Below, one piece after another: positions 54,260 to 55,729 of a stretch of DNA of 64,000 nt. The stretch's first letter is position 1. Every line of letters begins with the position of its first letter. The stretch is taken from assembly GCF_003018115.1 (NCBI RefSeq), contig NZ_CP027457.1; one strand, written 5' to 3'. The notes beneath the pieces are model-generated. The model searched no databases. It was not told the origin of the DNA and was given only the letters and a program-made list of their open reading frames with translations. This stretch comes from Escherichia coli. GTDB lineage: Bacteria > Pseudomonadota > Gammaproteobacteria > Enterobacterales > Enterobacteriaceae. The position numbers were made by a program, and so were the translations under genes.

Positions 54260-55729
54260 CTACTTTTTAGCATTCGCATCCAACGGGGCGGCATAACAAC
54301 GGTAAGAAAAACATTCGCTGGAATGATTGGCGATATCTTTAAAGTTGCTTTCAGCAACCCCCTCGAACATGAGTACCGTTCTGGACAACTCTCCGTTGTC
54401 ATTTATATGTGGAAAATCAAATTGTGTACTGAATCGCCATACATCTGTCTTTTCTGGCTCGCTGTTCACAGAGATACGTCGATGGAAGCCTCCTCCTGAA
54501 AACGTGCGCCAGAACAATTGTTGATCAAAATCTTGTAATATCGCACACTTGGATGCTATTTGTTGTAGTAAACCTGCATACCGTGGACTGCCATCACGAG
54601 CAACATTATACAAACACTGACTAAAAGCATCGAACAAACAATAGATGTGATCACTAGTGAAAAAAGGTCTTAATTTTTTTTGTTCTTCGTCGCTGTAATC
54701 CAGGAGCATCTCATTGATTTCTTCCTGTGAGAATTTTAAGACAAAATTATCTTCAGGATTTGTTTCTTTGTTGTTTTTTTCAATATTCTTCTCCTCAATG
54801 CTATTCGCATTTTGTTTCGCAATTATTTCCGAATTTTTTTTCGCAGTTTTTTCCGCAGTTTTTTTCGCAATTTCTTCTGCAATTCTTTCCCGAGTTTTAA
54901 ATTTTAAACTGACACCATCGATGTCAACCGGTGTTGTTTTAAGATCTCTCTGCGCGTCTTTCAAATTTAACTCATAGAGTTTGGGCAGTTTATCTGCAGA
55001 TACGTATCCGGATGAAGAAATCTGGTGTGTACGCAGGGGCGGCTGTTCACAAAGCATCGAGGTTATATCGTCTTTAAACTCTTTTACATTAAACTTCTCG
55101 GCATTAACCTTCCCTGTTATAAACCCCGCATCGGTAATTTTCTTCTCTAATTGTTTTGTACGTTTAGAATAATAAGCGTTGTTATCATAAAACTTTTCAA
55201 GAAGAGCCCACTCCTCAAGTTGCTTTATGTGATTTTTCAACTGTTGATGATCTATTTTATATTCATGTGTACTAGAATCATTTTGGTTGCAGGAGTTACA
55301 GATTTTTAAGCATAATTTTCCATCAGATTTATTATCTATGGTATCAGTGAAAATATAGGACACTTCAATACTCTGCCCGTACTTATCAGTCATCTCATAT
55401 GACCATTGCCCCGTTCGTTTCGCATTCTTAATGAATTCGATGGACTCTGCAGGACAACCATGAAGAATAGGCAGAATTTTATCAGGATGCTTAATGAGTA
55501 AAATTATTATATTTACAATGTTTGAAAAGAAATTTTTGCTATTTTTTATTTCATCGATTTTTTCCGCTGAAATGTTTACTAAGTTTTCATTTCCGCAAAT
55601 GAAAAGCGATTTGCCATGGGTGCTTTTTTTAAATTGTTCTTCTGTTTTAGAAAAGACATCCTCCTTAAAAGGTGGCAACTCAGCACCAGTAATAAACGGT
55701 TTCAATAAATTCGAATTTGAAATTGTCAT
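54260..55729 (-). CDS. accessory protein of unknown function (489 aa), absent from the K-12 backbone
   Basis: Uninterrupted 489-aa ORF with Shine-Dalgarno GGAG 7 nt upstream of the ATG. Visibly AT-rich. N-terminus MTISNSNLLKPFITG is Ser/Asn/Thr-rich with no acidic residue in the first 16 aa. Central Lys/Glu-rich repetitive segment RIAEEIAKKTAEKTAKKNSEIIAKQNANSIEEKNIEKNNKE. C-terminal ~150 aa of ordinary composition. I recognise no family. Confidence 0.75.
   Translation of the reverse strand: MTISNSNLLKPFITGAELPPFKEDVFSKTEEQFKKSTHGKSLFICGNENLVNISAEKIDEIKNSKNFFSNIVNIIILLIKHPDKILPILHGCPAESIEFIKNAKRTGQWSYEMTDKYGQSIEVSYIFTDTIDNKSDGKLCLKICNSCNQNDSSTHEYKIDHQQLKNHIKQLEEWALLEKFYDNNAYYSKRTKQLEKKITDAGFITGKVNAEKFNVKEFKDDITSMLCEQPPLRTHQISSSGYVSADKLPKLYELNLKDAQRDLKTTPVDIDGVSLKFKTRERIAEEIAKKTAEKTAKKNSEIIAKQNANSIEEKNIEKNNKETNPEDNFVLKFSQEEINEMLLDYSDEEQKKLRPFFTSDHIYCLFDAFSQCLYNVARDGSPRYAGLLQQIASKCAILQDFDQQLFWRTFSGGGFHRRISVNSEPEKTDVWRFSTQFDFPHINDNGELSRTVLMFEGVAESNFKDIANHSSECFSYRCYAAPLDANAKK

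What the first reader, a model, noticed from the sequence alone, without database searches (positions are those of the whole stretch)
54671..54900. In-frame short tandem repeats and A7-A8 homopolymer tracts inside the orphan gene
The stretch 54830..54900 on the plus strand reads ...gaatttttttt-cgcag-tttttt-ccgcag-ttttttt-cgcaa-tttcttctgcaa-ttctttcc..., i.e. imperfect ~12-nt tandem units (4 codons each) encoding the AEEIAKKTAEKTAKKNSEIIAK repeat. It contains T8, T6 and T7 runs (A-runs on the coding strand), with further T8/T7 runs near 54674..54681 and 54773..54779. Such tracts are prone to slipped-strand mispairing and transcriptional slippage and can cause length or phase variation; alternatively they simply encode a flexible charged linker.
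Basis: seen in the sequence. Interest (0 to 1): 0.4.

Follow-up and report, generated by a model that had tools for sequence, protein, structure and literature searches.

The report
Length-variable helix repeat in orphan gene
A short 12-base repeat and several runs of A inside an E. coli-only gene of unknown function are real mutation hot spots: strains differ in repeat number and a few lineages carry frameshifts. They look like ordinary slippage in a lysine-rich helix-coding stretch, not a programmed on/off switch.

Summary
The repeats lie in a 489-aa minus-strand ORF (54260..55729). It sits in a 34% GC, 1.67-kb islet between acpH and malZ and equals ECs_0454 of O157 Sakai. It has no homologue outside E. 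coli/Shigella.

The 12-nt array (about 54797..54892) encodes 4-aa units A-[E/K]-[E/K]-[I/T/N], predicted as one long charged alpha-helix.

- **Repeat number:** among 22 fetched alleles and 120 protein representatives, in-frame length changes fall in the array in steps of 12 nt (4 aa). The one exception is a mosaic allele that lacks the array. At least six single-unit gains or losses sit on otherwise identical proteins.
- **Frameshifts:** every 1-nt indel seen lies in an A7 or A8 run. A7 became A8 in 26 genomes (the O145:H28 clade and relatives). A8 became A7 in four genomes.
- **Stability:** tract lengths are stable within clones. 312 of 318 genomes with the O157:H7/O55:H7-type allele are exact around the A7 tract.
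- **Chance:** the number of A-runs matches expectation from Lys-Lys dipeptides and normal AAA codon use (P = 0.21).

The verdict is a coding minisatellite with slippage-prone homopolymers. It gives in-frame length alleles and occasional lineage-fixed pseudogenes, not classical phase variation. Interest is low to moderate.

The parts
54260..55729 (-). 489-aa orphan ORF (= ECs_0454 of O157:H7 Sakai; PGAP 'hypothetical protein')
   Evidence: ORF list. Found at the same site, in one copy, in 1127 of 5426 complete E. coli genomes. Sakai locus tag. No Pfam, NCBIfam or PADLOC family. Only the E. coli cluster and fragments of it appear among 1.84 billion representatives.
54240..55914 (.). AT-rich islet (about 32-40% GC against about 52-57% in the flanks) inserted between the convergent stop codons of acpH and malZ
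   Evidence: Composition profile. K-12 MG1655 has only 4 nt between the two stop codons. The malZ C-terminus is identical in both.
54797..54892 (-). In-frame 12-nt (4-codon) tandem array of 8 units: RERI AEEI AKKT AEKT AKKN SEII AKQN ANSI. This is the length-polymorphic block.
   Evidence: TRF period 12 at 54804..54888. Unit dissection. In-frame indels among the 22 alleles map to 54786..54885 and are multiples of 12. In the one mosaic allele that lacks the array, the gap extends a few codons beyond it.
54834..54841 (-). A8 on the coding strand (T8 on +), inside the array (codons GCG AAA AAA AAT). It is A7 in four genomes, which shifts the frame and gives a stop at codon 302.
   Evidence: GPEC1446, NCTC10444, KV7 and O78 strain 3 are all annotated 'frameshifted'.
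54847..54852 (-). A6 on the coding strand, inside the array
   Evidence: No 1-nt length change was seen among the sampled alleles.
54859..54865 (-). A7 on the coding strand, inside the array (unit AKKT)
   Evidence: It is A7 in 20 of the 22 alleles. F2_81 has a different sequence here and the mosaic allele lacks it.
54774..54780 (-). A7 on the coding strand, just 3' of the array (in the direction of translation). It is A8 in 26 genomes (O145:H28 clade and relatives), giving a +1 frameshift with a stop at codon 326.
   Evidence: O145 strain RM12275-C1 has A7 with 0 other differences over the whole CDS.
54674..54681 (-). A8 on the coding strand (E-Q-K-K-L), in the C-terminal part. Essentially invariant in length.
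   Evidence: All 30 rows sampled evenly from 1070 matching genomes have the same length. The only A7 is in ESDR8, an assembly with three homopolymer differences.
55624..55630 (-). It is A6 in two assemblies.
   Evidence: PCP07014 and ESDR8, both 'frameshifted'. An assembly error cannot be excluded for either.

Best explanation
The stretch is a coding minisatellite. Eight in-frame 12-nt units (consensus GCG-RAA-AAA-AYT) encode A-[E/K]-[E/K]-[I/T/N]. Together with the following Lys/Glu/Asn-rich residues they form one long charged, salt-bridged alpha-helix (about aa 277-308). This helix joins the N-terminal about 275 residues to the C-terminal about 160 residues of an E. coli-restricted orphan protein.

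Because neighbouring units are near-identical, replication slippage or unequal exchange adds or removes whole units. This gives in-frame alleles that lengthen or shorten the helix by 4 residues (about 6 Angstrom) per step.

The A6-A8 runs are a by-product of Lys-Lys dipeptides written with the normal AAA codon. They are the gene's weak points for +/-1 slippage. When they slip, the result is a truncated product lacking the C-terminal part. Such alleles persist as pseudogenes in particular lineages.

**Shown here:** the repeat anatomy, the location of all indels, recurrence on identical backgrounds, rarity and clonal stability of the frameshifts, and the absence of A-run enrichment beyond codon expectation.

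**Inferred:** the slippage mechanism itself, the helix-spacer role, and that the frameshift alleles are non-functional.
For: - **Anatomy:**
- **In-frame indels:** among 22 alleles they fall in 54786..54885 and are multiples of 12. There are -12 changes at three different positions, -24 at two, and +48 in F2_81. The other two length changes are a frame-breaking 152-nt deletion and a mosaic allele without the array.
- **Protein representatives:** among 120 representatives the GVSL..DNFVLKF segment is 34, 42, 46, 50 or 54 aa long, always in steps of 4.
- **Recurrence:** three protein backgrounds that are identical outside the array each carry several array lengths. This gives at least 6 single-unit gains or losses with different junctions.
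- **Speed:** allele pairs with 0 substitutions in 1470 nt differ only by one unit (L003/L004, L007/L010) or by one A (L003/L020).
- **Frameshifts:** all 1-nt indels lie in A7 or A8 runs, which make up 37 of 1470 nt.
- **A-runs:** their count equals the synonymous-shuffle expectation.
- **Helix:** AlphaFold2 predicts H277-308 at pLDDT 66-79, while the rest of the model averages about 40. There are 9 i/i+4 opposite-charge pairs against 4.4 +/- 1.7 in shuffles, P = 0.008.
- **Clonal stability:** 312 of 318 exact around the A7 tract in the O157:H7/O55:H7-type allele. All O157:H7 rows in the spread samples carry the 1446-nt allele.
- **Threshold for RNA polymerase slippage:** published GFP-reporter work says E. 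coli RNA polymerase needs at least 7 T, and more than 7 A, for detectable transcriptional slippage (PMC6260861, abstract). Genome surveys used 9A/9T as the working threshold (PMC1088944).
Against: - No read-level or single-colony data were available, so low-frequency within-culture heterogeneity cannot be excluded.
- One O145 strain (RM12275-C1) has A7 on a background identical to the A8 strains. That could be a reversion, which is what a reversible switch would produce.
- The structural model is poor overall (pLDDT 41, 15 near-identical sequences). The helix call therefore rests on a shallow alignment plus sequence pattern.
- Some singleton length variants come from short-read assemblies and could be artefacts. 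Several are nonetheless replicated on multiple contigs or in complete genomes.
Confidence: 0.75

Rival explanations
1. True contingency locus. The A7/A8 tracts act as a reversible ON/OFF switch (phase variation) for the orphan protein, and unit-number changes provide antigenic or functional variation under selection.
For: - Frameshift alleles at two different tracts are fixed in two pathotype-associated lineages.
- A7 and A8 both occur in O145 strains with no other difference in the gene.
- Amino-acid evolution is fast: dN/dS is 0.5-1.7.
- Nonsense mutations are nevertheless depleted: at most 1 seen against 8.1 expected, P = 0.002. This hints that the open frame matters.
Against: - The tracts are short (7-8 A). 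Classical phase-variable tracts are longer or are G/C runs (general knowledge).
- The number of runs is no higher than codon expectation.
- 312 of 318 genomes with the O157:H7/O55:H7-type allele are exact over the tract. All 30 sampled rows keep the same length at the A8 site.
- 25 of the 26 O145-named genomes listed share the same A8 state, which looks like inheritance rather than switching.
- The non-synonymous to synonymous ratios are not significantly different from neutral.
Confidence: 0.1
2. The homopolymer differences, and some unit-number differences, are sequencing or assembly artefacts rather than biology.
For: - ESDR8 shows three separate homopolymer differences in this one gene. 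That is typical of uncorrected long-read consensus.
- PCP07014's A6 is seen in only one other assembly, which is ESDR8.
- Several protein length variants are singletons from automated assemblies of read archives.
Against: - The A8 variant is identical in 26 assemblies from several laboratories and sequencing eras.
- The A7 variant is shared by four assemblies from different sources: chicken in the USA, an NCTC calf strain, a pig in Denmark and a human in China. Their malZ alleles differ.
- The 12-nt length classes are carried by hundreds of complete genomes each.
- An 84-96 nt array is shorter than a sequencing read.
Confidence: 0.05
3. The ORF is not a real gene. It would be an AT-rich, H-NS-silenced remnant drifting neutrally, so the repeats have no protein-level meaning.
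For: - There is no homologue outside E. coli among 1.84 billion representatives and no family match.
- dN/dS is indistinguishable from 1.
- About 5 of 60 evenly sampled genomes carry disrupted copies.
- No sigma-70-like promoter match was found on the coding strand in 54150..56000.
Against: - A 1470-nt frame in 34% GC DNA stays open in about 92% of sampled carriers across alleles 5-9% divergent.
- Nonsense changes are depleted: at most 1 against 8.1 expected, P = 0.002.
- In-frame indels far outnumber frame-breaking ones inside the array.
- In the mosaic allele L012 the sense frame stays open while the antisense frame is broken.
Confidence: 0.1

Closest known systems
Coding-region VNTRs / minisatellites of E. 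coli (the kind of locus used in MLVA typing)
   Same: It is a short tandem unit with a length that is a multiple of 3 (12 nt). It lies in frame. Copy number differs between lineages, with recurrent single-unit gains and losses.
   Different: - The units are imperfect (75% match), so the array is less mutable than typing VNTRs. It is invariant across the sampled O157:H7 genomes.
- I could not check whether it is already listed as an MLVA marker. No paper mentions ECs0454.
Simple-sequence contingency loci (homopolymer phase variation as in Neisseria, Haemophilus and Campylobacter)
   Same: Homopolymer runs lie inside a coding region. Their +/-1 length changes switch the reading frame, and the variants are seen in natural isolates.
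   Different: - The runs are only A7-A8 and are not enriched over codon expectation.
- The states are clonally inherited rather than mixed.
- No reversibility has been demonstrated.
Charged single alpha-helix (ER/K-type) spacers
   Same: The segment has a high E/K content and an excess of i/i+4 opposite-charge pairs. It is predicted as an uninterrupted helix of about 32 residues between two other regions.
   Different: - It has a 4-residue unit with Ala and Ile/Thr at fixed positions, which gives an amphipathic stripe.
- It could instead pack against the rest of the protein or form a coiled coil.
- There is no experimental structure, and the model is of low overall confidence.
Transcriptional slippage / rescue at poly(A) tracts (Thermus dnaX, Shigella mxiE, endosymbiont poly(A) genes)
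   Same: A-runs lie in the sense strand. An A8 frameshift allele (O145) could in principle be partly rescued by RNA polymerase slippage.
   Different: Reported E. coli RNA polymerase slippage needs at least 7 T and more than 7 A (PMC6260861). 9A/9T was the working threshold in a genome survey (PMC1088944). Nothing here tests RNA-level heterogeneity.

Membership tests
Coding VNTR / minisatellite | Head-to-tail repeated units detectable above chance | tested here: met
   TRF finds period 12, 7.1 copies, 75% matches, score 79. The period-24 description scores 93.
Coding VNTR / minisatellite | Copy number differs between isolates by whole units | tested here: met
   Changes of -12, -24 and +48 nt occur among complete genomes. 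The protein segment is 34, 42, 46, 50 or 54 aa long. At least 6 events lie on identical backgrounds.
Coding VNTR / minisatellite | Indels concentrated in the array relative to the rest of the gene | tested here: met
   All in-frame indels lie in about 100 of 1470 nt. The exception is the mosaic allele L012, whose gap runs a few codons past the array. Outside the array there is one 152-nt frame-breaking deletion, and the 1-nt indels lie in A-runs.
Phase-variable contingency locus | Simple-sequence tract whose length change shifts the frame or alters the promoter | tested here: met
   A7/A8 runs in the CDS. The +/-1 variants are annotated 'frameshifted' and give early stops at codons 302 and 326.
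Phase-variable contingency locus | High-frequency, reversible switching: mixed states within a clone or population | tested here: not met
   312 of 318 genomes with the O157:H7/O55:H7-type allele are exact. 25 of the 26 O145-named genomes listed share A8. All 30 sampled rows keep the same length at the A8 site. The comparison uses assemblies only, so read-level heterogeneity was not testable.
Phase-variable contingency locus | Tracts over-represented or maintained beyond what coding needs dictate | tested here: not met
   5 runs of A>=7 against 3.5 +/- 1.3 in synonymous-codon shuffles, P = 0.21.
Charged single alpha-helix spacer | Continuous helix rich in E and K/R with i/i+4 opposite charges | tested here: inconclusive
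   Predicted helix 277-308 at pLDDT 66-79. 9 opposite-charge pairs against 4.4 +/- 1.7, P = 0.008, and 46% charged residues. The overall model is poor (pLDDT 41).
Charged single alpha-helix spacer | Monomeric stability in solution, not a coiled coil | not testable with these tools
   This needs circular dichroism, SAXS or a solved structure.
Programmed transcriptional slippage site | RNA population heterogeneous in A number, with functional products from both frames | not testable with these tools
   No RNA data. The tract lengths (7-8 A) are at or below the published E. coli RNA polymerase thresholds (PMC6260861, PMC1088944).

The most novel reading that the evidence does not exclude
The orphan protein is a fast-evolving, E. 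coli-specific factor whose open frame is under selection while its sequence is diversifying. On this reading the 4-residue helix units tune its geometry. The A7/A8 tracts then give low-rate, reversible inactivation that has been selected in particular pathotypes (O145:H28 and an O78-associated lineage). The locus would be a weak contingency locus in E. coli, perhaps involved in host or phage interaction.
Probability: 0.1. Interest if true: 0.55.

Novelty: new member of a known kind. Interest (0 to 1): 0.3.

Why it matters
The practical value is modest.
- The locus is a clean, chromosomal, single-copy length marker. It separates E. coli lineages by CDS length (1446, 1458, 1470 and 1518 nt).
- It flags two lineage-specific pseudogene alleles, one in the O145:H28 clade and one in an O78-associated group.
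- It shows in natural data that A7-A8 runs and imperfect 12-nt repeats are the first places where a weakly constrained gene breaks or changes length.

The gene itself may be the more interesting object. It is a 489-codon frame with no relatives among 1.84 billion representative proteins. Its amino-acid evolution is near neutral, yet stop codons are depleted.

If the repeats turned out to drive real switching, this would be an unusual contingency locus in E. coli. The present evidence argues against that.

Tried and rejected
- **Family searches.** Pfam, NCBIfam and PADLOC gave nothing above threshold.
- **Homologue searches.** The word-indexed search returned only E. coli and Shigella alleles. 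The exhaustive HMMER search of 1.84 billion representatives returned only the E. coli cluster and fragments of it.
- **Structure.** AlphaFold2 on 15 alleles gave pLDDT 41. The Foldseek search of the PDB had no hit with E <= 0.001; the top hit was EspG at E = 0.12 and TM-score 0.15, which I treat as meaningless. I therefore ran no further fold searches.
- **Literature.** Searches for ECs0454, Z0502 and for acpH + malZ + O157 found nothing relevant.
- **Short array query.** An 81-nt query centred on the array found nothing because BLAST's low-complexity filter masks it. The A8-to-A7 variant could therefore only be counted from the length column.
- **Antisense ORF.** The Phe-rich + strand ORF 54714..54977 is rejected as a mirror image of the Lys-rich sense frame. 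It is broken by stops in allele L012, where the sense frame stays open.
- **Promoters and terminators.** The scan gave no promoter-like site on the coding strand and only weak + strand terminator-like hairpins.
- **Positive selection.** dN/dS above 1 in some pairs is not significant (P = 0.06 to 0.7).

Full report
**Where the finding sits**

The stretch 54671..54900 lies inside a minus-strand ORF of 489 codons, 54260..55729. The ORF occupies a low-GC islet (about 32-40% GC against about 52-57% in the flanks). The islet lies between acpH (53658..54239, +) and malZ (55915..57732, -). The wider neighbourhood is tgt, queA, acpH, [orphan], malZ, proY, which is E. coli backbone.

In K-12 MG1655 the stop codons of malZ and acpH are 4 nt apart, and the malZ C-terminus is identical. 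The islet is therefore a clean insertion of about 1.67 kb. The gene is ECs_0454 in O157:H7 Sakai, and PGAP annotates it as a hypothetical protein.

**The observation**

On the + strand the sequence has T8 at 54834..54841, T6 at 54847..54852, T7 at 54859..54865, T8 at 54674..54681 and T7 at 54774..54780. There is a further T7 at 55624..55630.

Tandem Repeats Finder reports a period-12 array at 54804..54888 with 7.1 copies and 75% matches. In the coding frame the units are exactly four codons each: RERI AEEI AKKT AEKT AKKN SEII AKQN ANSI.

The A-runs are not more numerous than the protein sequence dictates. The protein has 52 lysines (10.6%), 75% of them written AAA. Synonymous-codon shuffles give 3.5 +/- 1.3 runs of A>=7, against 5 observed (P = 0.21).

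**Variation among strains: repeat number**

The gene occurs once, on the chromosome and at the same site, in 1127 of 5426 complete E. coli genomes. I fetched 21 other alleles and aligned them with the window.

In-frame length differences map to 54786..54885 and are multiples of 12 nt. There are one-unit deletions at three different positions, two different two-unit deletions, and a four-unit expansion in strain F2_81. Three alleles fall outside this pattern:
- L012 is a mosaic allele whose central segment is replaced by divergent sequence without the array.
- M25631H has a 152-nt frame-breaking deletion at 55386..55537.
- GDSC2227PM has an IS1 insertion.

In an even sample of 60 of the 1127 carriers the CDS lengths were as follows:

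| CDS length | Genomes |
|---|---|
| 1446 nt | 27 |
| 1458 nt | 19 |
| 1470 nt | 8 |
| 1518 nt | 1 |
| disrupted copies | 5 |

Among 120 protein-cluster representatives, the segment between two conserved anchors is 34, 42, 46, 50 or 54 residues long, always in steps of four.

Three protein backgrounds that are identical outside the array each carry two or three array lengths with different junctions. That means at least six recent single-unit gains or losses. At the DNA level, L003/L004 and L007/L010 have no substitution in 1470 nt and differ only by one unit. The array therefore changes faster than point substitutions accumulate.

**Variation among strains: homopolymers**

Every 1-nt indel seen lies in an A7 or A8 run.
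- **54774..54780 (A7).** This run is A8 in 26 genomes: the O145:H28 strains and a few relatives, from several laboratories. In 45 other genomes with the same flanks it is A7. One O145 strain, RM12275-C1, has A7 with no other difference in the gene.
- **54834..54841 (A8, inside the array).** This run is A7 in GPEC1446, NCTC10444, KV7 and O78 strain 3.
- **55624..55630 (A7).** This run is A6 in PCP07014 and ESDR8.
- **ESDR8.** This assembly has three homopolymer differences in this one gene and is probably a consensus artefact.

The frameshifts give stops at codon 302 or 326, which removes the C-terminal third of the protein.

The tracts are stable within clones. 312 of 318 genomes carrying the O157:H7/O55:H7-type flank are exact over an 81-nt window around the A7 run. 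The one non-exact row shown has the same length. All 30 rows sampled evenly from 1070 genomes keep the length of the A8 at 54674..54681. Every O157:H7 row in the samples has the 1446-nt allele.

**What the repeat encodes**

The protein has no family match. An exhaustive HMMER search of 1.84 billion representative proteins found only the E. coli cluster and fragments of it.

AlphaFold2 on 15 alleles is poor overall (pLDDT 41). It does predict residues 277-308 as one helix at pLDDT 66-79, which is among the better-predicted parts of the model. The segment is 46% charged and has 9 i/i+4 opposite-charge pairs, against 4.4 +/- 1.7 in shuffles (P = 0.008). Each unit adds about 6 Angstrom, which is an inference from standard helix geometry. 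Foldseek found no significant structural neighbour.

**Is the gene under constraint?**

Pairwise dN/dS is 0.5-1.7, and none of the ratios differs significantly from neutral. However, among at least 184 substitutions in 21 alleles at most one creates a stop, where 8.1 would be expected (P = 0.002). The frame is open in about 92% of the sampled carriers. The frame seems to be maintained while the sequence drifts or diversifies.

The antisense Phe-rich ORF 54714..54977 is a mirror effect of the sense frame. It is broken in allele L012, where the sense frame is not.

**Mechanism and comparison with known systems**

The best-supported reading is ordinary slipped-strand mispairing.
- Whole-unit slippage in an imperfect 12-nt coding minisatellite gives in-frame length alleles.
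- +/-1 slippage in A7/A8 runs gives occasional frameshifts that persist as lineage-specific pseudogenes.

The locus meets the definition of a coding VNTR. It has the anatomy of a phase-variable locus but fails two tests: mixed states within clones, and tract over-representation.

Published reporter work says E. coli RNA polymerase needs at least 7 T, and more than 7 A, for detectable slippage (PMC6260861). A genome survey used 9A/9T as its working threshold (PMC1088944). RNA-level rescue at these A7/A8 runs would therefore be weak at best. This was not testable here.

**Verdict**

"Phase variation" is not supported beyond rare, inherited frameshifts.

Novelty is a new member of a known kind, and interest is about 0.3. 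The residual novel reading is a weak contingency locus in a fast-evolving E. coli-specific protein. It rests mainly on the A7/A8 pair within O145 and on the depletion of stop codons. I give it about 10%.

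Noticed in passing
window 54240..55914: The orphan gene sits in a 1.67-kb AT-rich islet inserted exactly between the convergent stop codons of acpH and malZ. K-12 MG1655 has only 4 nt there, and the malZ C-terminus is unchanged. About 21% of complete E. coli genomes carry the islet, always as one copy at this site.
   Followed up: partly
L012:321-1706 (strain 100181), homologous to window about 54750..54880: This is a mosaic allele of 461 aa. The central segment is replaced by highly divergent sequence (dS about 1 in that block against about 0.04-0.14 in the flanks), and it has no repeat array and no A8 runs. 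The array is therefore dispensable for keeping the frame open. The source of the divergent block is unknown.
   Followed up: partly
window 54260..55729 (whole ORF): Amino-acid evolution is near neutral: dN/dS is 0.5-1.7 and non-synonymous to synonymous counts are not different from the neutral share. Nonsense changes are nevertheless depleted (at most 1 against 8.1 expected, P = 0.002). This is an odd combination for a 489-codon orphan.
   Followed up: partly
L013:2521-4261 (O55:H7 USDA5905); NZ_CP135595.1 (GDSC2227PM); L022 (M25631H): Three other ways the gene is destroyed in single strains. A deletion joins a 336-nt remnant to a truncated malZ. An IS1A element is inserted in the CDS. A 152-nt deletion corresponds to window 55386..55537.
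   Followed up: no
L019 (strain ESDR8): This assembly differs at three separate homopolymer runs in the one gene (-1, +1, -1). This is probably long-read consensus error, and it is a warning for any homopolymer survey based on assemblies.
   Followed up: no
window about 55861 and about 55890 (intergenic, upstream of the orphan gene): Small 1-3 nt indels among strains occur in an A-rich stretch of the malZ-orphan intergenic region, including an A6/A7 run. This is the putative promoter region of the orphan gene.
   Followed up: no
window 54714..54977 (+): An 87-codon Phe-rich antisense ORF overlaps the repeat. It stays open in most alleles only because it mirrors the Lys-rich sense frame, and it is interrupted by stops in allele L012.
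   Followed up: yes
window 7336..7343, 8636..8643, 20422..20429, 48049..48056: These are the only other A/T runs of 8 in the 64-kb window. There is no run of 9 or more anywhere in the window.
   Followed up: no
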